Source: Eukaryota sp. GEM-RC1 (taxonomy: Eukaryota). Taken from it: a stretch of 64,000 bases of DNA. Where the stretch lies: assembly GCA_040285855.1 (NCBI GenBank), contig JAUFOQ010000016.1, positions 1,240,001-1,304,000 of the forward strand. Direction: 5' to 3'. Of the stretch, positions 618 through 64,000 are shown piece by piece (positions within the stretch are counted from its first letter, which is position 1; the number at the start of each line of letters is the position of its first letter). A model generated the notes under the pieces. It saw nothing but the letters and a program-made list of their open reading frames with translations. It ran no database searches and was not told where the DNA came from. The translations under genes were made by a program, and so were the position numbers.

Positions 618-900
618 CTAATACTCAATATCATCAAAGCAAGATTCCTTAGAATCGAACCTTGTTGAAGCTTTGTCTTCATAATGCACACTGACGGATA
701 ATAAAGAATTCGAAATCATTGTGGGAACTGCTTTTAGAATTGTAAAGACAATTCTGTTCTGCCAAAAAGAGTGGTCCAAAAAAATTGAATATACTAGTAA
801 GTGATTCTCGTAGATTGCTGAATCGCATACAGAAACAGATCTGGAGATCACAGGTTCGCAAACAACGTTTTAGAAATCGTTCAATTCAAACAACAAGTAG
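618..900 (-). pseudogene. Degenerate 3' fragment of an RLE-type non-LTR retrotransposon
   Basis: Translation FWQNRIVFTILKAVP resembles the C-terminus EWKNRIVFSIYRNMP of the element at 20.8-23.6 kb. Confidence 0.5.
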
Positions 901-19279: not shown

Positions 19280-19937
19280 GGGATTGGGGATAACGTAGTT
19301 GTAGTTGTAGTTTTCTATGTATTTTGACGGGGCCAATGTCTTTTGATTGTTGAGCCTAGTCATGTGGGGTTATCCTTCTTTATTCGTTTTCACTGTGTGA
19401 TTTTGAATTTAGAATGAAAGATCTCACCCCAACAATACTACCCACGTGTAACAAGTAGTATTTACGTGTTTATGAAAAATAAAATCGTAAATTATAATAC
19501 TAAATTCTGAATACAATCGTGTTCCGCACAGGCTTCACTAAAGTAGTCCAAAATTCCAAATTAAAGTAAAGTGAAGTACTTTACTTTAAGCTTTACTTTA
19601 CTTTAACAAATAAAGTTACTTTAAGGACATTAAAGTGGGATCCGATCTCAACTCCTCTCCCATACATTCTCTCCTGAAAATTGAAAATAGATTTCCATGA
19701 CATTCATTCCTTCCGAAGAATGGAAGTCAGTATGTGAAGTTGTAGAGGTGTTGGGAAAAACATGTGCCCGCATACATTGCAAACTGTGCGACCAAAACTA
19801 CTCAGTCAATCGATGGGCTATGGAGGTACACTACATCCCGAATCTTCATCCTAAACGACCAATAAAGATGTGGTTCAAGTTGAAGAAGTGAACCCATATG
19901 AAGATGTGGTCCAAGTTGATCCATAGTGAAAATGATA

Positions 19938-20656
19938 CAGTCAGGTTCCTGTAATTTCAACCCCCATAATTTCAAGGATCCTCTAATTTCAAGGTCCCAA
20001 AATGTTACTTCCGATACCTCTAACATCAACTTTTCTCTAATATAACTGCTATCAGCTTCTAGAGCTACTTAAGAGCATCTTCTGGAACGTCGATATGAGT
20101 CTGCATGGAATTTCCTGTTTACGAGCCCTTAGTGTTCTGATAGCTATCTAAGTACATTCTAGCTATGCTGATTATTGATAGAGTCAGTTTGATGTTACTT
20201 TGTGTGTCATAAATCCTGTTTTCGCGTTTGCCTGCGTTCCAACTGGTGGTTTTCTTCCACTCACTTACATCCCAAAATACTTAACTATGAAACTCCAACG
20301 TCTTCTTCGTTGTTGTGGTAGTACTGTTGGTTACTCATTTCCGCAAATCTTGCTAAAAGTGATCTGAAACATGCAAAACTCAGCTCTACACGTTACGTTG
20401 ACGAAGTTCACGGAAAAGGACATCATTGACACCCTTACGGACGACAAGATCAACGAGAAATCAACACTTATCGAATCAGTGCGATTCAGGTAAAGGACTA
20501 AGCAATACAATGAAGAATTGGTGTTTTATTAGGTTATACAGAGACTACAGAGCGTATCATGAGTGAAAGTAGTTGAGAAGATAGAGAGATCCTATAAATT
20601 CAAGGTTCCTGTAATTTCAAGGTCCGGACAGGGTTGAAATTATAGGAACCTGACTG
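19938..20656. mobile_element. Tc1/mariner(pogo)-type MITE
   Basis: 26-bp TIR CAGTCAGGTTCCT(G/A)TAATTTCAACCC, TA on both sides. Confidence 0.88.
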
Positions 20657-20744
20657 TATATTCTTAAGCTCACCCGCTTTCCATTAAGAATTGTAGTTTT
20701 TGGTGAGTTTCTACAATAAAACATGTATAATAGTGTACTTTTGG

Positions 20745-24160: not shown

Positions 24161-24254
24161 ATTTCCTGTCTTTATTGTACATACAAAATAATGCACATTT
24201 GTATTTGCAAGTCTTTGATGATATCATATAAGTTCATACTGTTTGTTTTCTCTC

Positions 24255-25472
24255 TGATTTTGAGAAAATGGTCAAAAAAAAGAATGAACAAGAAATTTGA
24301 TTTCAAATTTTGGTTGAATCGTATTGTTTTTACAATATTTAAAACAATTCCTATCATGATTTCAAAAGCTCTATTAGCTCTCAGTGTTTTTTATGAAGAA
24401 GTAATCGTATGGCAATGATTGTTGCTTTAATGATATTGAATTCTAGTATTTGTGTTAATTTTAATGTTTTTAATAAAGTTCATCTATTGAAAAAAAGTAA
24501 TCGCATCAACAGCCGTTAGTTCGTCATTGACTGATGGAACTATGACATCAGCCGTTCTTTACCAAAACTCTTATCAGAATCACTATTTTTTAATTATTGA
24601 TTTCAAAGATTCGATTTTGTGGGACTTACACATTGCACGAATTTGATCTATGACAGCATCATGAATGCAAGTCCTAAAATGTTGTGATCCATTGAAGATC
24701 TTTGGACAACAATCCATAAATCTGTCGAATTTGGTTAATCAAAGCAACTGAACATCTGTCCTTCAAATTGATTAAAACCAGAATAACAAATGTAGAGCGT
24801 GAAGAACTTTAAGTGTTTTTAATTTCAGGAACTTTGATTTTATCCAACTCTTGTTGAATCTAAATCAAGTAATCATCAAGATTTTTGACAACATCCTCCT
24901 TTTTACCAATAAAAAACAATCAAGAAATCAGAAAGATGATTAATAAAAGGTACTCAATTGAACGAATTGTTAACAAATTAGGTTCTTTTCCTATACCGAA
25001 ACACTTTTCAATATTTAGATATAAACCCATCTCTTCATTCAAAGTGGCAGCTTCTGCAGAAATTGCTTAGTCTCAAAATGTGCAATAAAGGAAACGCCTT
25101 CAATCTAGATGTAAGCCAAATCCTTTGATGAACAATACAAGTCAAGCAAAACTGAAAGTCAAATGTCTTGTTCATTCTTTTTTTACAACTATCTCAACAT
25201 CAGAGAAAACAAAGAGCTTCTTTACCAAGTCGAACATAAATTGAAATGGCAATAGGACATAATTCGTACTCAACATGTCTAGAATGTTTGAGAGTAGTCA
25301 AGGGAACATCATATTTGTTTCTCTTGTATTGTTCTGAAAAATCAAGTGGAGACATTGTTAGCATCCTTAAATGCCCTTTTTGCAAACATTCACAGTAATC
25401 GTATGGCAATGATTGTTGCTTTAATGATATTGAATTCTAGTATTTGTGTTTATTTTAATGTTTTTAATAAAG
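24255..25472. pseudogene. Cluster of degenerate RLE non-LTR fragments
   Basis: + strand KFDFKFWLNRIVFTIFK (~24290); - strand HFRTCIHDAVIDQIRAMCKSH (~24610-24680); 79-bp direct repeat at 24400-24478 and 25394-25472. Confidence 0.6.
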
Positions 25473-26402: not shown

Positions 26403-26603
26403 TTTATATATATTGTATGTTTAGACTTTGTTTTATTCTTCCGAATTAAACCATTTTTGTATAGCTTTAAAACTACATGTAAAACGAACAATTATGAAGG
26501 ATTTTCATTTAGAGCTGCCAAACGATTAGATTCAACCCATAAGTTAATCGACTCGTTGGTGTTGTCCAAGTGTGACTTGACTTACTCAGAATAAAGTCGT
26601 CAG

Positions 26604-28421
26604 TAGAGTTGCCGTCGACTCGACTCAGATAAGTGTGAGTACGCTCGAACTCGCACTTGAATCGAGTCGAGCGTACTCAGTCTGCAGACTCAATGTCTAT
26701 GTTTTTTTCTCGTCGTTTTTCAACATTTTACTGATCAGACATTATAGAATGCTTGTTAAACAAACACCACGTGATGTGGCTTTACTCTTGAATATAAAGA
26801 TGGATTTACAACCTATATGGTACGAACTTTTCTGACGTTTGAAGTCGATTATGTCTACAAAGAAGTTTATAACGAAAGTAGAAATTACTTGATGTTCTTC
26901 TGAACATAGTTGCAAAATTCAAAATACAGTATTTTTTTGTATTACTAGTATGTATTATTTCTGTATTATGTATTGTATTTTTTTCTGCAAAAGTGTATTT
27001 GTATTTGTATTTTTTGTATTTTTTCCCTGCCCTAAAATCCCTTTAGTTGATGACAATGACTGAAGTAAATGAGGAAAACACTCAAAAGCGGATCGTTCCG
27101 ATCAATTATACCATTGTATGGTACAATTGGGCCATGTATTATTTTAGCAACTTGCAGAAATACCTGTACAATTGTCTGCTGAATTTTCTAAACGTTCCAG
27201 TACAGTACGTCAACGGCGTATGCTAGATGACTAAAAAGTGAAACACCGATCAAAGTCAAGTAACAAAAATTTAGAAACGCTTAATAATGTTCATCCCCAA
27301 GAATTGAAAAATACCAAATGATGTAAAGTTGTGCAATCTCCAGTAGCTTCACTACTGTCAGTCAGTGATGCAGATTCAAAACCCTGATGAGACGAGCTAC
27401 ACGACACTCAGTTTGATCCTGTTTTGAAGATGTACGTGTGGTCTTTGGGGACTATGATTTCGAGTTTAAACATATTTACCTACAAGCGGTATATTAAGAC
27501 GATTTACAACAAATGTACGGGACAAAAAGTGTCCAACGTCACATTGTATAACTGTATAACTCCACGTCAGTTCTTTAAACGTGGACTAAATGAACATTTG
27601 AACCGTCGGTGCATTTTAGAATCGAAAGAACAATTGGGGTGATTAATGAAAAGAAGTCTAAGACTGTATACTGAAGAGTTGAACCATGATAACCCTGAAG
27701 ATCAATCACGTTTGCAGTGGTTGGACTCAATACAGTTAGTTAAATACTTGCGATATGCAAGACAAAAATACACTTAATACAGTATTCTGTATTGTATTTG
27801 TTTTCTGTATCTGTATTGTATTTTTGTATTCTGTATTTTTTGTATTCTGTATTGTATTATTTTTTTTGTCCGTGTATTTTGCAACTATGCTTCTGAAGGA
27901 CCATAGATGAACACCAAACTTTATTGTGAAGAGGTGAAAATGAAATTGAAAATAATTGTTCTAGTTACTACAGTACATATAGATCATAGAGATAACTCAA
28001 AGCCATTAGCAGCCCAAAACCTAACACTCAAGAGGGCTCGTACAATTTTGGGGTGGAGATGTAATCATTAGAAGGTGGAAGAGTTGGTAATGTAATGTAT
28101 ACTGTAACTTCTACATTACTTTTATTTTAGTCCTTATTTAGTGTTTTCTTGTTGTGTGTTTTTTCGGCATATAAAGACGTTTTGACTTCCACCATAACTC
28201 TCTTCAAAATGGTTTTTGCATAGTTAATAGGTTATACGATGCCTTATGATCTTCAATTTATGACGTTAAAAACAAATAAAAACAAAAATTAGGACATCGT
28301 CTTGAGTGCAGACTCAGCGTACTCGACTCGACTCGGAAAACTTTGAGTACACTCGGACTCGACTCACAGAATTTTGAGTACGCTCAGACTCAGACTCGAG
28401 TCGAGTCGATCGGCAACTCTA
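26604..28421. mobile_element. Non-autonomous hAT-type element with GACTC/GAGT-rich subterminal repeats
   Basis: TIR TAGAGTTGCCG / CGGCAACTCTA; perfect TSD GTCGTCAG at 26596-26603 and 28422-28429. Confidence 0.88.
26905..27889. mobile_element. Second hAT-type element nested in the previous one
   Basis: TIR CATAGTTGCAAAAT / ATTTTGCAACTATG; perfect TSD CTTCTGAA; TGTAT subterminal repeats. Confidence 0.88.
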
Positions 28422-28539: not shown

Positions 28540-29497
28540 TGTTGTGGATGTATTATAGAATTATCTTCTTTTTAAATCTTCTCTTCTTGAATTTAAGAGT
28601 CTTTCGGCATCAATAATTATTGGCCCAAACTGGTAATCTGTTTTTCGAACTATACTAACCATAGAATAATGAACGTTAAAACAACGTGCCAAAGAACTAT
28701 ACCAAGGCTGACAGTCACAACAGTGGAGAGTATTAGCAGGTTCATGCTGGAATACTCTGCTTGTGATAAAGTCGGAACTGATGGTACAAGACTCACTCTG
28801 CGGGATTGTGTCGAAGAGGACTTATTGGAGTCCATCTCCTTTGTCAACCCAGATGTCACCAAGAGTGACGAAGAACTGAGGAACTTTCTAGAATCTTCCT
28901 GTGAATATGCCTCTATCGAAGAAGTCTATGAAGCTTTCCTCCAGCTGAAAATGGATTCTACTATCACAAATCCTCGAGCCCGAGTATTGGATTACACAAA
29001 ACAAGTAGTTGCTGTCAAACGCCGGGCAAAGAAATACGAACTCCCAGAAAAAGCCGTATTGTCTAGATTTGTTAAGGGTGTTTTGCCAAAAGGTCTCTCC
29101 GAATCTCTCAAAACTCGTGTAGCTGATGGCTATTTCAGCTCCTTGTCTGAACTCGTTGAAGTTACCATCGAAGATCTCACTGACTTTGAACGTGTAAACC
29201 AATGGAAGTCTCGGAGTCGACTGTCTTCCTCATCTGAAATGGTAGATACACCAGATGTTAAGCAAGTTCGCCATGGAGAGGCCTTGTCAAAGAAGTTGTG
29301 CTTTAAATGCGGAGAACAGGGACATATCGCCTCTGTGTGTCCGACAAAGCTCAACGCTCATCGTATCAATATGTTGAGATGCACCAACCCTCTAGAGCAC
29401 TTGAAAGAACTGGAGAAAGAGTGATGTTGTGGATGTATTATAGAATTGTCTTCTTTTTAAATCTTCTCTTCTTGAATTTAAGAGTCTTTCGACATCA
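28540..29497 (+). mobile_element. Miniature gag-only LTR retroelement
   Basis: 73-bp TG..CA LTRs at 28540-28612 and 29425-29497 (2 differences); 4-bp TSD CAGG; purine-rich tract before the 3' LTR. Confidence 0.9.
28669..29424 (+). CDS. Gag-like protein with CCHC zinc knuckle
   Basis: Intact 251-aa ORF containing CFKCGEQGHIASVC; fills the space between the LTRs. Confidence 0.85.
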   Translation: MNVKTTCQRTIPRLTVTTVESISRFMLEYSACDKVGTDGTRLTLRDCVEEDLLESISFVNPDVTKSDEELRNFLESSCEYASIEEVYEAFLQLKMDSTITNPRARVLDYTKQVVAVKRRAKKYELPEKAVLSRFVKGVLPKGLSESLKTRVADGYFSSLSELVEVTIEDLTDFERVNQWKSRSRLSSSSEMVDTPDVKQVRHGEALSKKLCFKCGEQGHIASVCPTKLNAHRINMLRCTNPLEHLKELEKE

Positions 29498-30971: not shown

Positions 30972-31523
30972 GTTGTGATACCATTTAGTAAGACAACAAA
31001 TACTAAATGAAACAAACTTAGTAATCAACACCAATGTCTACCACTTCACCATCATAGCATATATCACTTCTTGTGTTAACAATGTATTTAACTAAAAGTA
31101 AATTCCGGTCTTCATAGACAAACAGTTGTTTATCAAGAATGTCTGGCTTAACAGAAGGACGACGATGGATTTCTACTTTAGTTTAGCTTTACTGGACAGT
31201 CATGTCGCTGTAATAGTTTCATGGTAAGATGTATGGAAATAAAGTCCAGATACTTGTAATTTTATCTTACTTCTTGTTGTTGACAGCAATGTAACAGTGA
31301 CACAATTGCAATTGATAAGTAAGGAACGGCCTAACATCAATGAACAACGGCATTTCAGTTCAAATGTGTGTGTATTGTGCTCAACTCTAAGTGTTTGACT
31401 TCAAATTGAAGTCTTCAATCATGTATACTTAAATATTGCAATGTCAGGCAACCTCTGAAATAGTCCAAAATTAGTATATTTTCCAACATTGATTATAGTA
31501 CAATGTATTGCAATATCAATATA

Positions 31524-32525
31524 CAGTCTTCCCTCGGTTTAGTGCCACCTCGGTTTAGTGCCACCTCGGTTTAGTGCCACACCTCGGTTTAGTGCCAAAT
31601 TTTCGCTTCCAAACATTTGTCGATCGATCTTTCCTTCTCTATCGACCGTTCCTCGATCGATCTCCCGTCTATCTATATGTACAATAAACACGCTTACATT
31701 CTATAGTCTTTGGCTTCATATTTGGAACCCAACACTAACCTTTCTTCTCATCACACACTTTCCTTCTGAAGATGTTTTACAAAGAGTCTTCTGTGTTATC
31801 TAGACACACTCAACACCAAATCACGCCAAAAATGTCCCACTTCCTTTCTTATTCTGTTCTCATCCTTTGATTTGATATATATAAGGGTAGAATTGGGAGT
31901 GTTTACAATTTGGACTCAACGGGAACATTTTCCGCCGTGACCGGATGACGACTTTACTAGAGACGTTTTGCTAGAGAAAGAAGGCACCAAGAACGTTGAA
32001 TGATCCCATATACCCTCTCAGGGGTTAGAATATCCTTCGTCTTGAAGGCAACCACATGTTCTTCCCTCTTCGTTGACGGATTTCGCTGGTCTTTCTCCGT
32101 TTTCATTCCTTCAACAGCTTTCTACTCAACGTTCTCATCTGATTTCTCCTTTCAAATTCTTTCTTTGGGATGAGTTTTTGTCTTCTCTATGCTTTCTGTT
32201 TCTGGGCTGATACTTCTTCAGTGATCTCAGATGTACTTGTTGTCTGGTAAACTTCATTCCTAGCTCTTCGTTGTTCGCTAAAACATCATGAATGATATCA
32301 AATTTCTCAATGTGTCACTGCCTTTTTCTTGAAACCCTTTCTCTCCCATATGATGGCCAATGGTACCCCACTAGTATCACCAGTAGATGCACGTCTGTTA
32401 TAGCTTTTATTTCACATAACAATAAACATCCATCATCATCTGTTCACACTGCACGGAACAATCCCTCGATATAGTGCCGACCTCGGTTTAGTGCCAAACA
32501 GCGGCACTAAACCGAGGGAAGACTG
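31524..32525. mobile_element. Tc1/mariner(pogo)-type MITE
   Basis: TIR CAGTCTTCCCTCGGTTTAGTGCC, TA flanks, tandem CCTCGGTTTAGTGCCA subterminal repeats; diverged inverted internal copy at ~45050-45210. Confidence 0.88.
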
Positions 32526-32688
32526 TATATTAGCGTTCCCTACATTACATTTTTTGGTAAGGCCGAATTGCGTTGGAACTGTTTTGTATTATTGTTTCGT
32601 GATGATGTATTCAAACGAATTAGTAAACTACTACATTAGTTTTTAGCAGGAAATATACATGTACAGCAGATTTAGAAAAACGCTATGT

Positions 32689-44291: not shown

Positions 44292-45869
44292 TCTTAGTAA
44301 TGTAAACAGCTTCACCAGTTAATAGAACAACAATCTCTCAAATTACAACACTATGAATCATGGATTCGCTCAGTACAACATCTACTTCCTTCTGAGTACG
44401 TTTCTCCCAGCATCTACACACACAAATCCCAACCAACAGTCCCCGATGAAGACATTATTTGCATTTCCGATGCTGACGATTCGTATTTAACATGTCCTGA
44501 TGATAGTGATCTTGTTCGACAACAGAAACAGGATGCTGAGACTGTTCTCACCGCTTGGGACGTTCCGACTCATAAGAAACGTGAAATGATTGGAAAAATT
44601 AAAGGTCCAAAACGTGAATCTTTTGATTTCTGGGCTATTAGGGATCCCAATGGGGAGGAATTGTAATGAACTTTTTCTCTTGTTTTGTCCATTTGAAGAA
44701 GTTAGCACAAAAAGTAGAAAAGTTGTTTGGTTTATTGATGAAGATAAATAAGCATCAGAATTGACTATGATTCTGGAGTATCTTCTGACTTATAGTATGA
44801 GATTGATACATAGTACGAGTGATAACACTAAGAGAAGAGAAATCTATATTAGACAAGAATGTTACATGTTTGTTGATGAATCAGTAAGACGAGAGTTGAC
44901 TAAGTGATGTAAGTTGAAAGAGAGATAAGAAGCAAGACTGAGACTTGAGAGGGAACATGGGCTCATTCAATGTTCTTGGTATCTCCTTCCTCCAGCAAAA
45001 CGTCTCTACGGAAGCCGTTGAGACCAAATTGTGACCGCGTCCAATTATACTTTAATTTATATCAAAACAAAGGATAAGAACAGAAAAAGAAAGGAAGTGG
45101 GACATTTGTAGCGTGATCGTGTGTAAAGTGTGTCTAGAAAACCAATACGACTCTTTGTACAGCATCTTCAGAAGGAAAGCGTGTGAAGAGAAGAAATGTT
45201 GGTGTTGGGTTGTGAAAAGAAAGATGTGAATTGTTTAAAGAACAACTGAAAGGAGCAAATTCATGGTCAATTGTCTATGTAGAGGACACTGAAAAGTGAA
45301 AAATGAAGACAATCGTCAATAAATGTCTTGACTGACATGACACTGTAGACACATCTATAAATACCAACAACATACAAAATGGCCTATTTTCTGCTCACAT
45401 GTCGATGTTCATTCATTCGACGGTTATGAGAGGCCTGTTTTTGGTGGGAAAGTCATCCTATCAAATCAGGTGGAATTCTACAGAAGCAACTTCTGTAGAT
45501 ATCTTGTATCCATACAGCCTGGGTGGGACCGGGCGGCAATATGCTATTCAAAGGCATCATTGTTCAATCAAAACCCCAAGGAAGGCATTTTTGGTCATTG
45601 ATCCAATTCAATCCAAATTTTTTATTTTTTCGAAGTCGAGGGTTTTATATGGGAGTATGTGTGTTGTTTTTGGCAGTCAGGCCTATCATTTTTACATGCC
45701 CAGCATGGTGATAGAACCACCAGGGCAACACACTGCTTTCCAGCCCCCAAACTTGCCTCCTTGTAAAATTCAGTGGATCGGTGGTGGTGGTGGTGGTTTT
45801 GGTGGTGGTGGTCAAATTTTATTGAAGTGTCGTTTTTTGCAAATTTCTGTCAGTTTTGATTGTAGACTG

Positions 45870-45923
45870 CAGTTCAAAATTGATCTTACGTCTGATGGTG
45901 ATGTGGAATCCAATCCAGGTCCA
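45870..45923 (+). other. 2A-like ribosomal skipping (StopGo) peptide
   Basis: QFKIDLTSDGDVESNPG|P matches the D(V/I)ExNPGP consensus; core at 45900-45923. Confidence 0.85.
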
Positions 45924-46571
45924 CAATCTGATCCCAATTCTGATCCCATCGGTACAAGATTGAGTCTTTCAAGTCTTGGTACAGAACCTGCTCATAAGAA
46001 GAAAACTGTACTGTCCGAATCTCCTTTGCAGTTTCTAGAAGCTGAGGAGTTATATCTTTTCTGGACATTGAATCTCTTTCGGCAAAAGAATTGCATACTG
46101 TAAAACTCCCTAAAACTTCGGAGAAAAAAGATGCTGCAGACGATGAACTCGATTCAGAAGCCAAACCAATCTCTGAATTGTCTGAAGAACCAGATCAGTT
46201 GAAACCTGACTTTGAAAATGATTCAATCATCCAGATTGGAATCCAACTTGTAAATACTTTTGAACATCCTTTACAAGAGTCAAGGAGTTTCTTGTTTACT
46301 TCTAAGCGAGTTCTTACTGATGATCTCAATGCTGAAGTTCTTCATTTTGAAAATGAAAAGGAAATGTTGGTTGAATTTATTCATCTCCTGAAATTGGAAG
46401 AGCCAAAACTCATTTGTGGCTACAATTTAAATTCATTTGATTTGCCGTTTATTGTTCGTCGATGTCAACTGCTTGGTGTGGAAATCAATTTCTTAATTAA
46501 ACTGGGTGAAGGTTCTGTTTGTTGTCTGTGGTTTTTTCAAAGATGGGCTAAAAAATCAAATCTTGCTTCTA

Positions 46572-47368
46572 CAGTATCCTCTCTATATCTTCTCGCCTTT
46601 GGGAACACAAAAAACCGAGAAGATATAGAGAGCGAGAAGATATACAATTATGTTTAAAACCCAAATAATACATATGTTTATTAAGTCTACTCAATAACAA
46701 TCACATGTGCATTGTTTGAAGAGTGGAAAAAGTGCATCAAAGTTCTTTGGCTCAATTCTTCAACTCTTAATTCCTGAAACTCACGTTAAACTTCATCCAA
46801 AGTGTATTACGAGGAGTGTTTTCAGTGAAAGTTGACAGAAACATAGGATTGCAAAGCTGTAAGAGCATTTTATACTTCTGTTCTAGAGACTTCAGCTTGT
46901 GGTTGCCAGAATTACGTCTTCAGTGATTATCATCAGTGACAAGTTCATTTCCACAAACAAAACAAGAGCTGCATCTAGTTCAGAATATTTTAATGTTCGT
47001 GTCCTTTTGATTGTCTTAACTTCTTTTCTAGTGTAATTGCTTGTTCAAGAATTTGAGCACGTCGTTTGAGTATTTTTACTATAGTTGTTCGGTGAGGAGG
47101 TGCAGGAAAATTGAAGGTTTCTTTGGCCACAGGGCTAGATCGGTATTCTTTAAGTGTGCATTTTTATCAGCATACTAAATGAGTAGCGCTGATTGTTTGA
47201 CACCAATTTCTACGGGTTTTGGTTTACGATGTTTGATAGTTTGGCTCATAAAAAGCGAGAAGATATAAACCGAGAAGTTAGATAACCAAATGACTTAGGG
47301 AATTGAAAAAAGCGAGAATTTATAGAGAGTGAGAAGATATACAGCGAGAAGATATAGAGAGGATACTG
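46572..47368. mobile_element. Tc1/mariner-type MITE inserted in the exonuclease coding region
   Basis: Perfect 25-bp TIR CAGTATCCTCTCTATATCTTCTCGC; TA TSD at 46570-46571 and 47369-47370. Confidence 0.92.
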
Positions 47369-50326
47369 TATTTGGTCTCTGGATTTGTATCAACTCTTAC
47401 GTTCTACTTATACGTTTCCCGGAGGTAGATCATTGGAAAATGTTGTTTCATATCTGTTTGAAGGTTCACACATTCAAAAATTGGGTCTTTTATCCGAAGA
47501 TGAGAAAGTTCGTCTTACAACTAAGTACAAGAGTCAAGGTTATGAAGTGCTAAGAAATCAAACTACTTTAGCCAAGTTGAAAGAAATTGAACGTTTGTGG
47601 AATGGTTCAGATGAAGACCGTAGGTCTCTTGCTTGTTATTGTATTAACGATGTTGAATTATGTCGTTACTTAGTAGACTTCTTCTTAGATAAAAAATTGC
47701 AAACAATGTTGTTTCTTCCTGCTGTTAAATCTGTTAAATGTGATCTTCGTCAAAATCTAAACGATTCCAATCCCCAAGATCAACAATCTGATCTTAATGA
47801 ATTTCGCAGAATTGGAAAGAATTTTAGTAGAATCAATACCAGAGGTAGAATGCTCTTAAAGTTATTCTTTATTGATGAATATGATCGTCAAATAAATGAA
47901 AAACCTCACGAATTACCCAACTTGGACATTCTTCAAGAAAAAACAAGGTTCTAGAGTCTTTATGGTGGTCTGTTTGTCAAAAAGAAGTGAATTGGAACAC
48001 TACTATGAAAAACAAGGTTGTGATGAAAAGATGCAAGTATTGTACAACAAAATTGAACAGGAAGAAGAAGAGATCGAAATGGAAGATTCGGAAACTGTGG
48101 AACTTGTAGAAAGAAAATCGAAAAGAGGTACTGTGTCTAGTGAGCTTGTCTCAATGAGATGTAGGATGGCCCACCTATGTTTTGATTATTACTTGCCAAT
48201 TCTCGAAATGATCTCCGTTGAACAAAATGTCGCGTCATGGACAAATTCACAACCTCAAGTTTTTGAGAAAGATTACGATTTCCTAGCTCCTTCCTACAAA
48301 TTAATGGATCAAATTTTGAAATACCATTCAAGACATGTACGTGCAAATTATGCTACTCATTTGAAAATGCACTTTCATGAATACATTTTCCGTGCCATGA
48401 ACATTTGTTTGAATAAAAAATCGAGAATAACAGAGTTAAAAAGACCATGCGATTGAAAAACAAGAATTGTTGACCCAGTTCAAACAATTGAGAGAAAAAA
48501 TTATTGATTGTAAAATTTCTGAAATCAATTTTGACTTATTTGAAAATCCTGAAAGAAGTATTTGTAGAAATTTTAAAGACTATCTGGAAAGTCATTTTAC
48601 TTCAATATTTGTCAAAGATAAAAACTTATTCTATTCTCAAAAGGTCCATCCAATGAAGTTGTTGTCTCATGCAATTTTTATTACAAGGCTTGTTAGAGCT
48701 GAAACTGATGAAAGAGGAAATCCTTGCAGTATTCCAAATTGTCTTCCTTTTACAGACACTGTCATTCCACATCATTTTAGAGTTGACACTAAAGTTGTAT
48801 TAGGTAATTTCTTCAAAAAGAAGCCATGTCTGAAGCTCAAGATTTAGAATCCAAGATTTCTGGGGACAAAATTTTCAAAAAACAAACAAAGAAATTTTAC
48901 ACAAGTCGTTCTGTCCAATACGGAACAGAAATCTGGGATTCCCTACTTAACAGAGATGCTAGATGCTTCAAATCTACTAAGGCAAATTACTCCTTTAAAA
49001 ACTCACTCCAAACTGATGGTGTTTCAGTTTCACTTGTTTTACAAAGAAACGATTTAGTAGGAAAAAAATATTCTACAATTCAATTGCATACTGAAGAAAA
49101 GTATCTGGATGATTTAACCGATGCCGATATTGAGGAATTAAATCTCAGAGAAAGAACTCTTGTGGGCATTGATCCAAATAAGTATGCCCCAATTGTTGCT
49201 GTCACAGAAAAGTCTGCTGAGGAATTGGAAAAGAAGGAATCAAAGAAGATGCAACCACAAGGCCACGAAAGCCATCAGGACGTGTCATTAAAAACAGAAG
49301 AAACCACAGAACACCCAAACCTGAAGTTCAAGTCTCTAAAGATGTTAAGCTGAGAGAAAAAGACAAGTTTAAGAAGTTTGTTTATACTCAAGGAGAACGT
49401 AACTACGACTCCAAATTCAAAAAATACCGTAAAACAGAACAACGAAAGCTCGAATCGACTACCTGTCTTGATGTAACTGGTAAAGATGCAATGAATCTCT
49501 TCTCTGCTGCTGTCAATCAAGGACAAAAACAATCTTGTGTTCGTGGAGAGTTTTGTCAGTACATCTATCAAAAAGAACTGTTTAACCTGAGAACTTGGAA
49601 TTTGTATAGTGCTACTTGGTTTAGAAAGAGGCAACTTCAATTGTACTCCAACAAAAAACGGGGAGAAGACCAAATGATCAACCGTTTCAAGAAAAAATTT
49701 GGTGAACCAAACAAAGTTCTCATCGGTTATGGTGATTGGAACGACTCTGCTTTTCGCTCGAAAGGTTTTATTCCGACAATTAAAGGAAAAGCAATGAGGA
49801 AGCTATTTACAAAAGCAGGGTTCAAGATTTTTCTAGTGGATGAGTACCGAACTAGTAAGTGTTGCTCTAAGTGTGTTAAGGACGGAATATTTGGAGAAAA
49901 TACCCACAATCATGGAATCACATGTCCAGATCCAAACATCCATCGAAAGAAGAAACGGAAAAGAAGTGGCTGAAGTGGTACTGTAAGAAAAACAGTATGG
50001 ATTTCCAAGAAGAGTGGAGAAAAGCTGAAGAGGAATTTGAGAAACGTGCTGAAGTGAAACCGTGGGGTTTGCTCAAGTGTAAGTATTGTACTACTATGTG
50101 GGACAGGGATTTCAATTCAGGCATCAACATTATGGAAATCATGAAGGCAAAGTTAGCTGGGCTACCCAGGCCAACTATTCTCAGCAGAAGCCAATCTGAA
50201 CAAATGACTTCTGAGATTAGTTGTGTACAATGTCTTGAGACTGAGGAGAGTGAGGAAAAGGACGTCGTTGCAGAAGATGAGAGTGAAGAAAATGTGGACG
50301 TTTTGATCGATCAGTCTGGATCTTAG

Positions 50327-50545
50327 TTTTACAAACTTTTTAGTCTACCTTAACCAGTAGGCAGCATTTAGTGTTGATTTCCTTCTTAATTGAGGAGGAA
50401 TCATTGATCAAAATTTTTGAATAATATAGAAGATTAACTTTGCATCATCAACAGCTCAACACTGGTTACACTGCATCAACGTCGGATTCTAGTGTAAAGA
50501 TTAATCCTAACAGAAATTCGTTTGATCGTATGTCCATGTAGTTTA
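50327..50545 (+). ncRNA. Candidate Fanzor omegaRNA scaffold
   Basis: Directly 3' of the Fanzor stop; stems at 50343-50362, 50375-50403, 50408-50420 and 50432-50506 (enclosing 50467-50496); boundaries uncertain. Confidence 0.55.
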
Positions 50546-50721
50546 GTTTACTAGTCCCTATCTATATTTTTGTTGTTTGATTGTCTCAGCACATATCTCC
50601 CACCTCTATGATCATAAATTCTGTTTGATTGGGCAAAATGGATCTATGGATTTTATAAAAATGTGTCATGGTTAAGCATCCAAAAAGAAATTCACAGTAT
50701 CCAAAGTGTGAATGCTTTCCC

Positions 50722-51369
50722 ATGTACTTTGAGAAACAACGCGCTGCTCTTTGTGCAGTTCATGCAATCAACAATCTACTTCAACGACATGTATTTACTG
50801 AGTCTGATTTTGCTGAAATAGCTGCTGGTCTCTCTGCTACAGAATCTCAATTAGGAGCATCTGAACCAGTTTCATACCACGTCTCTCTTTCAGGTGACTT
50901 CTCTATTGAAGTCATAAATAAAGCCTTGGAATTCTTTGGTATTCAGCTGATCAATCTTAAGTCCTCTGAACCCACTGCCGTTTCCATTAGAAACAATCCA
51001 ACCAGTGCAGAAGCCTTCGTTTTGAATAGAAACACTGCTGATTCTGGGCACTGGCTCTCAATCAGATCTGTCAATGGCCAATTCATTGAACTAGATTCCC
51101 TGAAACCAACTCCCGTACCCATCAGTCACACTCTTCTCGAACTCACAATTGATCAGTACCTAAGAGAAGGCTACACTGTGTTTGTTTGTAACAGTCCACT
51201 TCCAAGTGATCATGACTTGGCAGCGTTTGAATCAAATCCACCTGATTCTTCTGATACTGAGTATATGACATCTGAAGAAGAACAACAACACGAACAACAA
51301 CAGAGGATGGTTGAACAAGAGCGAGCTGATTTTGCTGTTGCTATGGCACGATCAATGATGGAAAAATGA
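50722..51369 (+). CDS. ATXN3: Ataxin-3/Josephin deubiquitinase with C-terminal UIM
   Basis: YFEKQ..LCAVHAINNLLQ, GDFSIEVI, HWLSIR, LDSL, DFAVAMARSM. Confidence 0.9.
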   Translation: MYFEKQRAALCAVHAINNLLQRHVFTESDFAEIAAGLSATESQLGASEPVSYHVSLSGDFSIEVINKALEFFGIQLINLKSSEPTAVSIRNNPTSAEAFVLNRNTADSGHWLSIRSVNGQFIELDSLKPTPVPISHTLLELTIDQYLREGYTVFVCNSPLPSDHDLAAFESNPPDSSDTEYMTSEEEQQHEQQQRMVEQERADFAVAMARSMMEK

Positions 51370-55100: not shown

Positions 55101-55789
55101 TATCTGTTTAAGTTTCTGATTGATTTTACGTCACAAATTTTCGTGTATTTGAACAATAAAACTCTTGACAGATCAGCAATAAATTTAGCATGTATTTTGC
55201 AGTTTTCATACGGCGGAGGCACGAGAGGATATATTTTTTAAGGAGTCTCGTTTAAGTGAGCAGGGAACACTAACTCCAACATTTTGAGGGACAATGGTTA
55301 CACCAAATTTTGGACAGATTGAAACAGTCCTACTCACACTGAAAGATAATATCTAATTTAATCTTGATTCAATAAGCATGATAGTTGGTGAATCTTCCAT
55401 TTGAGAATGAATTGGTTGTTGTTGCAAAACCAGTTTTGTTGCATTATGTGTAAAAATAGTGAGTGTTATTTTATCGGCAATGATTTTTGTTTGTTGTATT
55501 GTCATAATGTCTGTCATTTGAGTTCAGTTGGAGGGTTAACTGAACTACAATGAAAATTAGATTCTTTTCCTCACACTTCTTTGATTCTACATTGTCATAA
55601 TTTCTTCTAATGAATGACGATGTCAACAATGGTATTGACATTATTTCGGATGTTTCTGATGATGATGGACAATAGAATATGTGGGCTTGTTTGTGACAAA
55701 TACACATTATGATCAATACCGTTGCAATATTGAAATAGTGCAATATTGATTGGCGCTATTGCAGAATTGCAATATTTATAGAAATAAAA

Positions 55790-56165
55790 AAACGGATTTA
55801 TGTGCGGAGAAAAACACATAATAAGAAAACAACAAATAAATAAACACTATTAAAAGAAATTGTCAAACGAACTACCTAATTCCGAAAAGTAGTTGCCTCC
55901 AAACAACTTGGACAAAATGGAATCAACATATCTATGCATGGACCTAAAAATCGAAAAAGCAAATTTACCCTTCCAGTACGATCTGTTAAACTTCTTGCCA
56001 AATTCTGAACACAAATTTTCAAATAAATGTAAAAACTCATTGGTAGAAGAACCGAAATTTCCGTACAAAGAAACTGCAAAAGGCTGAAAGACGATATTAT
56101 TGTGTCTTCGTGAATTCAATGCAGCAACTTGATGTGCGTACTTAGACACTTTGGCGTTCTCAGCG
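55790..56165 (-). pseudogene. 3' fragment of an RLE non-LTR element inside a hAT-MITE copy
   Basis: AENAKVSKY..FQPFAVSLYG..WKGKFAFSIFR; flanks resemble 29650-30076, with TIR end TGTTTTCAGACCCCTG at ~56217. Confidence 0.7.
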
Positions 56166-56499
56166 TCTTTCAGCGGAAATACGTTTATATTTATTGCGAT
56201 ATTGTTTTCAGACCCCTGTTGATGAATTTCCATTTTTGCTGAACATGTTGAGAAACTGGTCATTTACGTGACGATTGTCGAAGAAAAAGTCAATCTGATT
56301 AACTTTACAGACAATGTTTTATTACAAAAGTTGGGTTTATTGTTTATGTACATGAGTAAAGGCGAGACGTTTTTATGTCGTGCAATTCTTAGGAAGAAGA
56401 AAACTGATGATCAAACAAAGTAGAGCGCTCCAGTTTCTGGAAGTCGGAAATTCAAACTAGAAGCCTAGACGAACTTTCTCTCCCCAGTAACACATCAAC

Positions 56500-60566: not shown

Positions 60567-60909
60567 GTGAAGAGTGGAAGAGGTGTAGTTGGGGTTGAAG
60601 ATTGTTGATCAAAAAAGTCAATTTGGGTTTCCGAATATTGTTTCTACAATATTGTATTACAATTGAAACAGTGTATAATATATGTATTACAATTTTAACG
60701 GTGTTGTCTCGTGTAGACAAGTCCTCTGTTAGATTTTGTTATATTCGTTCACAAAAGTAGTAGGATAAGACTGGAGTTGTTTCAAGACTTTCTTGTACAC
60801 AGAAATGTTGTAAAAAGCCAAAGTGTAAATCCTATTTTCGAAACAATAAGAAATCCACTCACTTGTAGTGATCACGCGAAAATACTATGAATTTAAGGAA
60901 ATTTAGAAA

Positions 60910-61278
60910 AAAGCGGACTTATGTGCGAAGAAAAAAACAACAAATAAATAAAGACTATTAAAACAAATTATCAAACGAACTACCTAATTCCGTAAAGTAA
61001 TTCCCTCCAAACAACTTGGACAAAATAAAATCAACACATCTATACATAGATCTAAAAATCGCAAATGCAAAGTTACTCTTCCAGTACGATCTGTTAAACT
61101 TCTTGCCAAATTCTGAACACAAATTTTCAAATAAATTTAAAGACTCCATGGTAGAAGAACCGAAATTTCCGTACAAAGGAACTGCAAAAGGCTGACAGAC
61201 GATAATATTGTGTCTTCGTCAATTCAATGCAGCAACTTGATGTACGTACAGTACTTAGACACTTTAGCGTTCTCAACG
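60910..61278 (-). pseudogene. 3' fragment of an RLE non-LTR element, paralog of 55790-56165
   Basis: Near-identical YGNFGSST..LFENLCSEFGKKFNRSYWK and shared 3' UTR. Confidence 0.75.
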
Positions 61279-62014: not shown

Positions 62015-64000
62015 GTTTGGTTTGTTTTGTAATGAACTCTTTGTATTTGTCAGGTCTTGTTTGATTATTGTTATGTAACACCATTGCTTGTAATTATTTC
62101 TGTATGTCTAAATATAAACCTTTCTTGGCGTTCAGCAATAATTTATCAACTCTAGTCGTTGTTTAATCATATACAGTATATTCTTTTTTAGAAAAGAGAT
62201 GTTGGACTCGTTGTTCTAGGGTCTGGGAATAAATATTTGTATTTAATATTTAAACTAAATATGGATATTTACGGAAACCGGCTATTGATGGAGGGTACAA
62301 AAATACATATCATAGTTAAAAAAAGTAAAAACAAATACATATCATATTAAAAGGAAATTATGTGAAAATGTGTTGTTCGCTAACTATTGGAAAAAATCCC
62401 TTTGGTTTGACCACATTCTCGTTGAATAGATCACTGTGTCTACACTAAAATAATTCCTTCTTAACACTGAAACCTGTCTGGAATGTACACACAAAACCTG
62501 CAGAGGTAGACTTAGAACGTGTTAGATTACGTTTTTGAAGTGTTGTGTTTTTCAAGAGGATAAGGGTACCAGTTTATGAACAGAAAATAAAGGATAAAGG
62601 ATAAAAGTGAAAAAATGGTGTTAACTTGGGGCGGTAACATTGTGAAGTGTGGTGACTTCCTTATTTCCATTGAATAAATAATATAAATAAATGCAATTAT
62701 TTATTTCCGCCAATATGCAATAACTCATATTGATTTAAGAGTTCTCTTCGATATTGTATTTCAATGTTTTTTCCTGACCTCTACTCTGTACAGTACAAAC
62801 GACGTGAAAACAATTTATTGGGCTTGCAAGATTTTGATATGTGTAATAGTTGTTTTTGATTGCAACAAATTTTCCAATGATTGTCCATTAACAATACACT
62901 GGCAATAATGCTTTGTTAAGAAATGCCCATTTTTTAGTCATTAACTTATTCAGAATGCTTAAAGACAGTTTATTGATGGAGGGGTACAAAAATACATGTC
63001 ATAATAAAAGCTGTGAAACACTAGACACCGAAAATTCCTGGTCAACAGTACCACAGTTTTTATACAACATTGTGGATATTGATTTAAAAATATTAGGCAT
63101 CATTTTTCAAAATCGACTTCACCAACACCCTTTGAAGCAGTACTTTCCTTCATTATTAAGGCTGTTCAAAAGACAGGATATGATCATCAGAACGTGGGTC
63201 AGGTTGCCTCACATTGGGTCTCGGGCTATGTCAAGGTATATCAGATTCGGTCTTCTCTGCTCAATGTCTGTGCTCTAGTTCAAAATTATGAAAGATTGAC
63301 ATCATACACTAGCTAAATATTCTGAGATGTGTGGTTTATACTATCTTGTAGAGGTGTGAATGACACAGTTTACAAGTTTACGATGATCAAGCTCTTGTCT
63401 GTCTGAGTGCAGGGTTAGAATTTGGTTTTGAATTGAAAGATATAAAAAGTAGTTATTTTACTATTTTGCTTTTAACTATTTATTCTAAATGTAATAGAAA
63501 AAGCAACTAAAATTTGATATCGTTAAAAGAACACCCTTGCTATAAAATTTTACAACAGCTTTGTCCACTTAGAAGGAACTCACAGCTATTACAGCTCTGG
63601 AGATGATTAGGGGAATTGTTTTTCCCACTGTTTTTCCACCCAACGTTTTTGAAAATAAGGTAAAAACAATGCGATTGATCCATAACATATGATCAAAACG
63701 TTTGTTCATCCTATTTTTTAAACTTATTTCCGAAATTGTATAAATAATTCAATGCACTTTGACCAAAGCGACCATAGATTGATACAGCAAAAGCGCATAA
63801 TTTAGAGCATCAATGATTCTTTGTCCTTAACCTGTTTGGCTTGTTCAGAAATGTCTAAAGGGGAAGTTTCAGAGTAAACATTCTTTAAGGATGTCATTTT
63901 ACAAACATCCACAGACACTACATCGAATCCATAGTTATCTTTCGAATAATTTTTCTTGTGTATATACATATTAATTCTGAATGCCATATGGACAATTCCA

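What the first reader, a model, noticed from the sequence alone, without database searches (positions are those of the whole stretch)
50327..50560. Hairpin-rich candidate omegaRNA and element right end
Seen: consecutive stems after the Fanzor stop, namely GTCTAC/GTAGGC, TGATT(T)CCTTCTT-AATT-GAGGAGGAATCA, TCAAA/TTTGA, and GATTAACTT/AAGATTAATC enclosing TACACT/AGTGTA. Established: TnpB/Fanzor guide RNAs come from the element's 3' end, with the guide taken from flanking DNA. Inference: the scaffold ends around 50510-50545 and the following bases, upstream of ataxin-3, would form the guide.
Basis: partly seen in the sequence, partly recalled or inferred. Interest (0 to 1): 0.7.

Follow-up and report, generated by a model that had tools for sequence, protein, structure and literature searches.

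The report
Guide RNA of exonuclease-fused Fanzor
These hairpins are likely the guide-RNA end of a broken jumping gene whose DNA-cutting Fanzor protein (predicted to be RNA-guided) is joined to a proofreading-type exonuclease, a fusion absent from the papers searched, and the RNA scaffold likely ends near 50,498, directly before what is likely the tail of a retrotransposon.

Summary
All listed stems are in the sequence, but the stretch folds no better than shuffles (z -0.38); only the 50375-50403 hairpin (pair probability 0.86-0.99) and the TTACACT/AGTGTAA hairpin (0.86-0.89) are stable. The gene upstream is a Fanzor1 with all three RuvC residues. No DNA of close copies and no RNA reads were obtainable. 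Distant giant-virus Fanzor1 scaffolds share the order hairpin, ATCAAA(A)TTTTTG linker, GTGTAAA end; the window matches it (3 of 318 blocks), although a covariance model does not (5.4 bits) and the viral long-range stem is not predicted here. Bases 50500-50600 resemble the 3' tail of a CRE-like retrotransposon. The larger finding is the protein: one gene joining a 2A-like leader, a PolB-type 3'-5' exonuclease with intact motifs and Fanzor1, intact (1473 aa) in a related Skoliomonas species and absent from the other relatives examined. This copy is broken by an 801-bp insertion. Verdict: likely omegaRNA (0.6) of a new Fanzor1 variant; a retrotransposon-carried Fanzor with a fixed guide remains possible (0.15).

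The parts
45356..45363 (+). TATA-like box, candidate promoter of the element (inferred)
   Evidence: TATAAATA 43 nt before the ATG of the leader ORF; function untested
45399..45923 (+). Leader ORF ending in a 2A-like motif DGDVESNPGP (45894-45923)
   Evidence: Only NPGP motif in the six frames of the window; the same motif, DGDVEANPGP, precedes the exonuclease in P0024 and P0172
46046..46569 (+). PolB-type (DEDDy) 3'-5' exonuclease, first half: ExoI LDIES 46061-46075, ExoII GYNLNSFD 46418-46441
   Evidence: Pfam PF03104 E 5.7e-16; motif positions; alignment to P0024
46570..47370 (.). 801-bp insertion with perfect 27-nt terminal inverted repeats (TA at both ends), breaking the exonuclease frame
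   Evidence: P0024/P0013 align up to and resume after it
47371..47717 (+). Exonuclease, second half: ExoIII YCINDVE 47637-47657, in the same unbroken frame as the Fanzor1 N-terminus
47718..50326 (+). Fanzor1: TDG 49012, RuvC-I DPN 49165-49182, RuvC-II DEYRTS plus zinc finger 49833-49874, RuvC-III RDFN 50102-50116; five frameshifts, no in-frame stop
   Evidence: N-terminus by profile of 62 stand-alone Fanzor1 proteins, E 5.9e-6; PDB hits SpuFz1 2.5e-9, PpFz1 3.5e-8, GtFz1 0.004; frameshift-aware alignment
50343..50362 (+). 6-bp hairpin 5' of the predicted scaffold; membership in the RNA unknown
   Evidence: -6.6 kcal/mol, 18 of 200 shuffles as good
50375..50403 (+). [quoted passage not shown]
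   Evidence: -11.7 kcal/mol, 2 of 200 shuffles as good; pair probability 0.86-0.99; sits where SL1 sits in the viral scaffolds
50405..50421 (+). Linker resembling the viral linker plus 5' strand of their terminal stem
   Evidence: 11.6 bits against the clade-2 descriptor; the long-range pairing itself has probability about 0 here
50466..50497 (+). Terminal hairpin TTACACT/AGTGTAA, the likely last stem of the scaffold in this copy
   Evidence: pair probability 0.86-0.89; alone not better than shuffles, 57 of 200
50492..50498 (+). GTGTAAA end motif; predicted element end at about 50496 and scaffold end at 50497-50499
   Evidence: the viral right ends read GTGTA then A/T then A in 63 of 63 loci where the motif was found; the motif occurs 13 times on the + strand of the window
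50499..50514 (+). Predicted guide (about 15 nt)
   Evidence: inferred from the 14-15 nt guides of published Fanzor1 RNAs; no match better than 12 of 15 elsewhere in the window
50500..50600 (+). Likely diverged 3' tail of a CRE-like (RLE) non-LTR retrotransposon
   Evidence: 14.5 bits, E 0.0013, 30 shuffled windows at most 8.4; best three independent tiles of 2124 are the tails at 60908-61000(-), 55790-55890(-), 28104-28185(+); 2 of 110 T-rich control queries score as high
50668..51369 (+). Host ataxin-3 (Josephin) gene; conserved part begins at ATG 50722
   Evidence: Pfam PF02099 E 3.5e-36

Best explanation
The stretch is likely the omegaRNA end of a Fanzor1 element whose gene joins a 2A-like leader, a PolB-type exonuclease and Fanzor1; the scaffold is predicted to run from about 50375 to 50498, and the next ~15 nt would be the guide. 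Shown: the gene's domains and catalytic motifs; the exonuclease ExoIII motif and the Fanzor1 N-terminus lie in one unbroken frame; the same three-part protein is intact in named Skoliomonas records; this copy is interrupted by an 801-bp insertion. Inferred: the element is transcribed from a TATA-like box at 45356; ribosome skipping at the 2A-like motif would release the exonuclease-Fanzor protein from a throw-away leader; the 3' end of the transcript would be trimmed to an omegaRNA (SL1, linker, terminal stem, guide); the complex would cut DNA that matches the guide next to a TAM, i.e. the emptied insertion site; the exonuclease would nibble the 3' ends of that cut so that it cannot simply be re-ligated and is repaired from the element-bearing allele (homing). 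The retrotransposon-like tail at 50500-50600 is read as flank: a short 5'-truncated copy beside which the element landed or which landed at its end. This copy probably makes no protein, but its RNA could load on protein from intact copies.
For: Fanzor1 identity; model of the paralogue P0013 matches only Fanzor1 structures at E < 1e-3, 7 of 7. Published Fanzor1 RNAs are 75-150 nt, come from the 3' end, include the target duplication and end in a double-stranded stem. Viral relatives show a sharp boundary 2 nt after GTGTA and a covarying scaffold: 87.7% of cells paired, 18 of 23 pairs changed on both sides; the base after GTGTA covaries with the internal strand in 58 of 59 loci. Four-segment descriptor from viral clade 1: 22.8 bits at 50385-50500, 5 of 276 blocks as high (the target's included), 1 of 300 shuffles. 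Descriptor from clade 2, fetched later: the site ranks 3rd of 128,000 positions, 3 of 318 blocks, 5 of 500 shuffles, and is the only one of the three with a hairpin directly 5'. Within 50100-50700 the covariance model's best alignment is also 50368-50500. Fusion; found in 10 of 192 fetched proteins, all Skoliomonas-named, and no tblastn hit in the loci held then.
Against: Covariance model R1 scores the site 5.4 bits (E 0.61 in 601 nt) while 16 unrelated window sites score 9.8-13.4 and held-out viral loci 34-101 bits (68 of 80 loci hit); a sequence-only profile misses it too. The viral-type long-range stem has probability about 0 and costs 7.5 kcal/mol here, against 0.88-1.0 in 15 of 16 viral RNAs. 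No left inverted repeat and no target duplication beyond chance (longest shared word 9 nt) and no transposase, so the mode of mobility is not shown. Folding is unremarkable. The exonuclease motifs are degenerate in the 13-member P0013 family, so exonuclease activity is not needed by every family.
Confidence: 0.6

Rival explanations
1. The element is a non-autonomous retroelement: it ends at about 50600, borrows the reverse transcriptase of a CRE-like partner through the shared 3' tail, and carries the omegaRNA inside, so that every copy has the same fixed guide.
For: The tail alignment starts at 50500, exactly after the predicted scaffold end; only three other such tails lie in 64 kb. No inverted repeats, target duplication or transposase. 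An N-terminal 2A-like motif is typical of non-LTR elements (PMC3708506, passages). The left flank holds no retrotransposon sequence, as would be expected had a DNA element inserted into a long retro copy.
Against: The tail is only about 65-70% like the window's copies, which are 86% alike and belong to a young family; 2 of 110 control queries score as high. No T/A tail or target duplication at 50600. A tail-only piece also lies at 28104-28185 without any Fanzor. Locus tags of 40 Fanzor and 28 retro genes in the named genome are adjacent only once (only listed members used). The scaffold ends in a motif that in the viral relatives is a Mariner-type inverted-repeat end. A 2026 review finds no evidence and no advantage for retrotransposons encoding Fanzor (PMC13565253, passages).
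Confidence: 0.15
2. The hairpins are ordinary AT-rich 3'-untranslated and intergenic DNA; the omegaRNA has decayed or lies elsewhere, for example over the acidic tail of the ORF (50190-50326), as in viral relatives whose RNA overlaps the reading frame.
For: Whole-region z -0.38; hairpin strength matched by 12 of 71 blocks; covariance model and profile negative; in clade 1 the end lies 121-242 nt after the RP motif, here it would be about 330 nt.
Against: Two descriptors from different viral clades pick the same site and end; 50200-50510 has no better candidate; the gene has no in-frame stop in 908 aligned codons, so the copy looks young and its RNA should still be recognisable.
Confidence: 0.2
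3. One reading: the scaffold runs to 50506-50545, either through the outer GATTAA/TTAATC stem with a TTAA duplication or to a Helitron-like CTAG end at 50554.
For: The outer stem can be drawn and is in the MFE of 50430-50510; TTAA at 50501-50504; CTAG at 50489-50492 and 50551-50554.
Against: Outer stem probability 0.05 in context; no GC-rich hairpin before any CTRR (best -3.8 kcal/mol); 50500-50610 folds worse than shuffles, z +0.96 and aligns to retrotransposon tails.
Confidence: 0.05

Closest known systems
Fanzor1 omegaRNAs of SpuFz1, PpFz1 and GtFz1 (Saito 2023 PMC10432273, section 7 and passages; Xu 2024 PMC11423790, section 5, passages and Table S3)
   Same: Fanzor1 protein with TDG, DPN, rearranged RuvC-II glutamate six residues before the zinc finger; RNA from the 3' end; a first stem-loop with a 7-bp core; a last stem ending in TA(A) directly before the guide; predicted length about 140 nt with guide, inside the 75-150 nt range.
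   Different: No terminal inverted repeats found (Spu-1 has 30-nt ones); protein about twice as long through the leader and exonuclease; no expression or copy data here.
Mariner-type Fanzor1 elements of giant viruses (PGv-1 kind; Bao and Jurka 2013 PMC3627910, passages; loci L001-L167 fetched here)
   Same: 28-49% identity over the RuvC region; collinear hairpin, ATCAAA(A)TTTTTG-type linker and GTGTAAA end.
   Different: The viral elements have about 25-nt inverted repeats (28 of 63 loci show the left copy at 19 or more of 25) and a long-range terminal stem; the window has neither, and the Skoliomonas proteins form their own clade (SH-aLRT 99, quick tree).
Non-LTR retrotransposons with N-terminal 2A-like peptides (L1Tc, Ingi, CR1, L2, Crack; Odon 2013 PMC3708506, passages)
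   Same: GD(V/I)ExNPGP motif near the start of the long ORF.
   Different: No reverse transcriptase or APE in this element; what follows the motif is an exonuclease-Fanzor protein.
Proofreading exonuclease domain of family B DNA polymerases (Pfam PF03104; Pol delta 3iay)
   Same: ExoI DxE, ExoII N..D and ExoIII Y...D motifs present in the window and in P0024.
   Different: No polymerase domain; fused to an RNA-guided-type nuclease; motifs lost in the P0013 family.

Membership tests
Fanzor1 protein | RuvC D, E, D with the glutamate six residues before the C4 zinc finger | tested here: met
   GIDPNK 49165, LVDEYRTSKCCSKC 49833, DRDFN 50102; criterion from PMC13565253
Fanzor1 protein | TDG motif in the WED domain | tested here: met
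   TDGVS 49012-49026; criterion from PMC10711439
Fanzor1 protein | Closest solved structures are Fanzor1 | tested here: met
   sequence hits SpuFz1, PpFz1, GtFz1; model of paralogue P0013 (mean pLDDT 62.5) gives 7 of 7 matches under E 1e-3 to Fanzor1
Fanzor1 protein | RNA-guided DNA cleavage next to a TAM | not testable with these tools
   needs biochemistry
Fanzor1 omegaRNA | Encoded at the 3' end of the gene, overlapping or following the stop | tested here: met
   candidate starts 49 nt after the stop
Fanzor1 omegaRNA | Conservation among copies ending at a sharp boundary, guide variable | not testable with these tools
   no genome, no reads, no close copy as DNA
Fanzor1 omegaRNA | First stem-loop of 7 bp | tested here: inconclusive
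   7-bp core with a 5-bp extension, probability 0.86-0.99, but hairpins of this strength are common
Fanzor1 omegaRNA | Double-stranded terminal stem including the target duplication, directly before the guide | tested here: inconclusive
   local TTACACT/AGTGTAA stem 0.86-0.89; viral-type long-range stem about 0
Fanzor1 omegaRNA | Expressed small RNA bound by the protein | not testable with these tools
   no sequencing run could be listed
Giant-virus Mariner-Fanzor1 scaffold family (model R1 built here) | Significant covariance-model score | tested here: not met
   5.4 bits against 34-101 for held-out viral loci
Mariner/PGv-1-type Fanzor1 transposon | Terminal inverted repeats with TA duplication | tested here: not met
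   best match to the reverse complement of the right end is 14 of 20, outside the element; longest shared word 9 nt
Mariner/PGv-1-type Fanzor1 transposon | DDE transposase in the element | tested here: not met
   none among the ORFs 44301-50326; non-autonomous members would also lack it
Non-autonomous partner of a CRE-like non-LTR retrotransposon | 3' tail shared with the autonomous partner | tested here: inconclusive
   E 0.0013-0.0017, 0 of 2000 block shuffles, 2 of 110 control queries as high; whether the tail belongs to the element is untested
Non-autonomous partner of a CRE-like non-LTR retrotransposon | Target duplication and simple-repeat tail at the 3' end | tested here: not met
Helitron | 3' CTRR preceded by a GC-rich hairpin | tested here: not met
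   four CTRR sites, upstream folds -0.9 to -3.8 kcal/mol
DEDDy proofreading exonuclease (PolB type) | ExoI, ExoII and ExoIII acidic motifs | tested here: met
   window and P0024/P0172/P0174; degenerate in P0013/P0007
2A/StopGo peptide | D(V/I)ExNPGP core | tested here: met
   45894-45923; P0174 carries NLGP; skipping itself not testable

The most novel reading that the evidence does not exclude
A Fanzor carried by a retrotransposon: a 2A-led exonuclease-Fanzor1 gene and its omegaRNA sit inside a non-autonomous element that is copied by a CRE-like reverse transcriptase through its 3' tail, so the guide is fixed, retrotransposon-derived and aimed at other retro copies, where the fused exonuclease prepares the cut for insertion or destroys the competitor.
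Probability: 0.15. Interest if true: 0.85.

Novelty: new variant of a known kind. Interest (0 to 1): 0.58.

Why it matters
An omegaRNA after a Fanzor gene is expected; fixing its end at about 50498 gives the scaffold needed to test the enzyme. The protein is what a specialist would notice: a natural fusion of an RNA-guided-type nuclease with a proofreading-type 3'-5' exonuclease behind a 2A-like leader, multi-copy in two Skoliomonas species, intact in one family and catalytically decayed in another, which is a ready-made comparison for what end-trimming does for homing (nuclease-exonuclease fusions are, from my recall, built on purpose in genome editing). No paper holding both 'Fanzor' and 'metamonad' was found, and searches for the fusion listed none that describes it. 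If the tail belongs to the element, it would contradict the current statement that retrotransposons do not encode Fanzor.

Tried and rejected
No whole genome is held. Close copies as DNA: none in viral contigs by protein or by a 22-nt pattern, none in metagenome contigs by the single protein, none in prokaryote genomes. No second copy of 50200-50700 in the window apart from the tail. Rfam: nothing at threshold in 49800-50900 or 44300-46100, so no known ribozyme in the leader. RNAalifold on A2 found only 9 pairs; the four-helix structure was set by hand from the covariation and then counted, so control (b) leans towards it. The mixed alignment A5 of both viral clades was out of register and was not used. 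The right-end pattern was written after seeing the sequences; 3 of 66 loci had no match and were dropped, and 6 more loci had been dropped earlier as too short or lacking the anchor, 5 of 64 loci lacked the anchors and 13 non-redundant ones built the descriptor. Spliced-guide idea (from earlier notes): removing the 28-nt GT...AG stretch 50465-50492 does not restore the viral-type stem (probability 0); rejected. Insertion into a long retro copy: no retro similarity on the left flank at DNA or protein level. Locus-tag adjacency of Fanzor and retro genes: 1 pair, not informative. The careful tree did not finish; the quick tree (61 rows, 201 columns) was used. The exonuclease part of the P0013 model has pLDDT under 50 and gave no fold evidence. 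ESM Atlas gave only 0.84-0.85 leads to PolB exonucleases. The first P0013 search did not return the RCL fusions, so word-based searches under-count this family. Supplements: 9 files of PMC10432273 hold none of five terms (Skoliomonas, Metamonada, GEM-RC1, TZLM, exonuclease), one PDF unreadable; supplements of PMC10530073 and PMC10711439, which list many Fanzors, were not searched and may contain these proteins.

Full report
1. Observation. As a whole the stretch does not fold better than chance: z -0.38, 64 of 200 shuffles as good. Sub-stretches picked afterwards give z -2.0 to -2.7, a level reached by 6 of 100 arbitrary windows, and 12 of 71 GC-matched blocks have an equally strong hairpin. 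In the ensemble of 50370-50520 two stems are stable, 50381-50387/50392-50398 (0.86-0.99) and TACACT/AGTGTA (0.86-0.89); the outer GATTAA/TTAATC stem is not (0.05). Rfam has no match at threshold.

2. The gene. The ORF pieces 47896-50326 are a Fanzor1: the only meaningful PDB sequence hits are SpuFz1, PpFz1 and GtFz1, and TDG, DPN, DEYRTS plus zinc finger and RDFN are all present. The nearest database protein, P0001, is 93-97% identical and named by its source as a Skoliomonas (GEM-RC1) protein; it differs by substitutions, so it is another copy or strain. Further families in the same named genome have 13, 26 and 5 members at 90% identity. The host is therefore likely a Skoliomonas-type metamonad; which record the window comes from was not established. 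The fusion is shown in the DNA: ORF 47358-47951 holds the ExoIII motif and, in the same frame, the N-terminus of stand-alone Fanzor1 (profile of 62 non-Skoliomonas proteins, positions 10-62, E 5.9e-6). P0024 and P0172 (named TZLM3-RCL, 1473 and 1479 aa) are intact single proteins with 2A-like motif, exonuclease with all three motifs, and Fanzor1; P0013 (1182 aa) is an exonuclease-Fanzor fusion with decayed exonuclease motifs and no 2A core. These are predicted proteins, whose DNA I could not see. The exonuclease was found in 10 of 192 fetched proteins, all Skoliomonas-named, and gave no tblastn hit in the loci. The six Skoliomonas-type Fanzors in the tree form one clade (SH-aLRT 99, quick tree, long branches). 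Against P0024 the Fanzor part has five frameshifts and no in-frame stop in 908 aligned codons, the breaks lying at or beside short base runs; a sixth separates leader and exonuclease. A host Rab gene in the window has a frame break in an A-run too, and the named genomes are nanopore assemblies (PMC11316075, section 6), so the shifts may be assembly errors. The 801-bp insertion is real and would inactivate this copy.

3. Where the RNA ends. No close copy was available as DNA, so I used 167 loci of distant relatives, mostly giant-virus contigs at 28-49% identity (best segment; one 24-residue hit at 67%). In clade 1, 63 of 66 non-redundant loci have a GTGTA-type end, followed by A/T and A in all 63 and by variable sequence after that; 28 of 63 show the left inverted repeat, as in the Mariner-type PGv-1 elements (PMC3627910, passages). 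Their scaffold has four helices with 87.7% of cells paired and 18 of 23 pairs changed on both sides (35 sequences); the terminal stem covaries with the first flanking base (45 TTT/A, 13 TAT/T, 1 discordant, 4 unscored), in line with the report that Fanzor1 RNAs take the target duplication into a terminal double-stranded stem (PMC10711439, passages). The covariance model finds 68 of 80 held-out loci at 34-101 bits but not the window: best local alignment 50368-50500 at 5.4 bits, below 16 chance sites. The window's RNA is therefore not a member of that RNA family by score. The order of short elements is nevertheless kept. A four-segment descriptor from clade 1 scores 22.8 bits at 50385-50500 (5 of 276 blocks as high, 1 of 300 shuffles; training sequences 26-60). 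Clade 2, fetched afterwards, has SL1, a TAA(C/T)CAAATTTTT(A/G) linker and a GGTGTAAAA end; its descriptor ranks the window's 50405/50490 site 3rd of 128,000 positions, 3 of 318 blocks, 5 of 500 shuffles, and of the three it alone has a hairpin directly upstream. Both descriptors were shaped after viewing the data, so I read them as p of about 0.01-0.02 at best. The structure is not kept: the viral-type long-range stem has probability about 0 here, against 0.88-1.0 in 15 of 16 viral RNAs, because TTACACT at 50466 pairs with the end instead. A local last hairpin directly before the guide is the layout of SpuFz1 and PpFz1 (PMC11423790, section 5). No left inverted repeat or target duplication was found, so the left end (between about 45212 and 45399) and the mode of mobility stay open.

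4. What follows the scaffold. The window holds 5'-truncated 3' ends of a CRE-like retrotransposon at 55774-56377(-) and 60891-61278(-) (zinc knuckle and RLE-type C-terminus in the 94%-identical P0021). A profile of their tails hits 50515-50600 at 14.5 bits, E 0.0013, with 30 shuffled windows at most 8.4. As a query, 50500-50610 finds these two tails and a third at 28104-28185 as its best tiles (55, 50, 43; background 32 or less among 2124 tiles; 0 of 2000 block shuffles), the alignment starting at 50500. A stricter control is less kind: 2 of 110 T-rich queries outside known repeats reach 55 and 4 reach 50. I take the homology as likely (about 0.75). It may be flank (best reading) or the element's own 3' end (novel reading); the left flank has no retro sequence, and tail-only pieces exist without Fanzor.

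5. Mechanism. Shown: domain order, motifs, fusion, insertion. Inferred from the known Fanzor1 pathway (PMC10432273, section 7; PMC10530073, section 8 and passages; PMC13565253, passages): 3'-end RNA with a 14-15 nt guide, cleavage of the emptied site, restoration by homologous repair. My own inference: the 2A-like motif frees the enzyme from the leader, and the exonuclease trims the 3' ends of the cut so that it is not re-ligated; trimming of the RNA's 3' end is the alternative. The decayed motifs in the P0013 family show that the activity can be lost. Confidence in the omegaRNA and its end: 0.6; in the exonuclease's role: lower, about 0.35.

6. Comparison and novelty. It works like SpuFz1/GtFz1 and the protein passes the Fanzor1 tests that could be run; the RNA passes none decisively; the element fails the Mariner and Helitron end tests. 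Literature searches: 'Fanzor' with 'metamonad' 0 papers; with 'exonuclease' and '2A peptide' 1, an IscB engineering paper (listing only); with 'retrotransposon', 'non-autonomous', 'fused' 2 listed (passages of one read); with 'TnpB', 'exonuclease domain', 'fusion' 3 (passages of PMC6338049 read, no such fusion); one search listed no Fanzor paper; PMC10711439 and PMC10530073 do not contain the word 'exonuclease'. The library lacks most subscription papers, and two large supplements were not searched. Earlier AI notes describe fungal Fanzors fused to a FEN1/EXO1-type 5' nuclease and 2A motifs in Helitrons; they are unchecked leads, the first suggesting that nuclease fusions recur, the second weakening 2A as a sign of a retroelement.

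7. Verdict. Observation partly confirmed; interpretation partly supported, with the end moved to about 50498. New variant of a known kind; interest 0.58, mainly for the 2A-exonuclease-Fanzor1 protein and the retro-tail question, both settled by one alignment of copies from public assemblies.

Noticed in passing
loci L002-L087, e.g. L021:5679-5800, L054:5679-5800: Giant-virus Mariner-Fanzor1 scaffolds form a four-helix RNA whose terminal stem covaries with the first base outside the TA duplication (TTTACA with TGTAAA, TATACA with TGTATA; 58 of 59 scored loci), so each element's RNA is matched to a TTTAAA- or TATATA-like target preference.
   Followed up: yes
loci L088-L159, e.g. L118:1745-1846: A second viral clade has a shorter scaffold: SL1, linker and one long rod without the middle stem-loop, with the same GGTGTAAAA end.
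   Followed up: partly
L117, about 6760-6880: One clade-2 scaffold carries an extra double-hairpin of about 50 nt inside the rod.
   Followed up: no
L144:4358-4484, L158:1103-1225, L111:6622-6727(-): Extra omegaRNA-like matches away from the Fanzor gene that brought the locus in; candidates for gene-less ghost elements or second Fanzor copies.
   Followed up: no
window 50528-50554: 27-nt GTATGT...TAG stretch that looks like the host's 28-33 nt introns (its first 10 nt equal those of a Rad51 intron near 10521); it overlaps the tail match and could be a 5'-UTR intron of ataxin-3 or chance.
   Followed up: partly
window 46570-47370, 31518-32531, 19935-20659: Three different non-autonomous elements with perfect or near-perfect 27-29 nt inverted repeats beginning TACAGT and sub-terminal direct repeats (pogo/Tc1-like by recall); 44946-45211 is 76% like the inside of the 31.5-kb one.
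   Followed up: partly
window 20958-23612(-), 24236-24480, 25131-25472, 63726-63794(-), 726-815(-), 55774-56377(-), 60891-61278(-): Several families of CRE-like RLE non-LTR retrotransposons, one with an RVT_1 ORF (22288-23466), the rest 5'-truncated.
   Followed up: partly
window 28540-29497: Gag-like ORF with a CCHC knuckle between 73-nt direct repeats (97% alike): a small LTR-type element without pol.
   Followed up: no
window about 25785 and 43253: Frame breaks in A-runs of host genes (a Rab GTPase and a zinc-finger gene), pointing to homopolymer errors in the assembly.
   Followed up: partly
P0003, P0171, P0045/P0181 (named GEM-RC1 proteins): Two Skoliomonas Fanzor1 families end in an extra CCHC zinc knuckle after the nuclease, unlike the acidic tail of the window's family and P0024.
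   Followed up: no
window 45546-45592 and about 12058-12105(-): 49-column match at about 80% between the leader ORF and the reverse strand of another gene; unexplained, possibly chance.
   Followed up: no
window 26600-26700 and 28300-28415: Clusters of GACTCGA/TCGAGTC short repeats forming related palindromic arrays around a 1.7-kb stretch; probably ends of another element.
   Followed up: no
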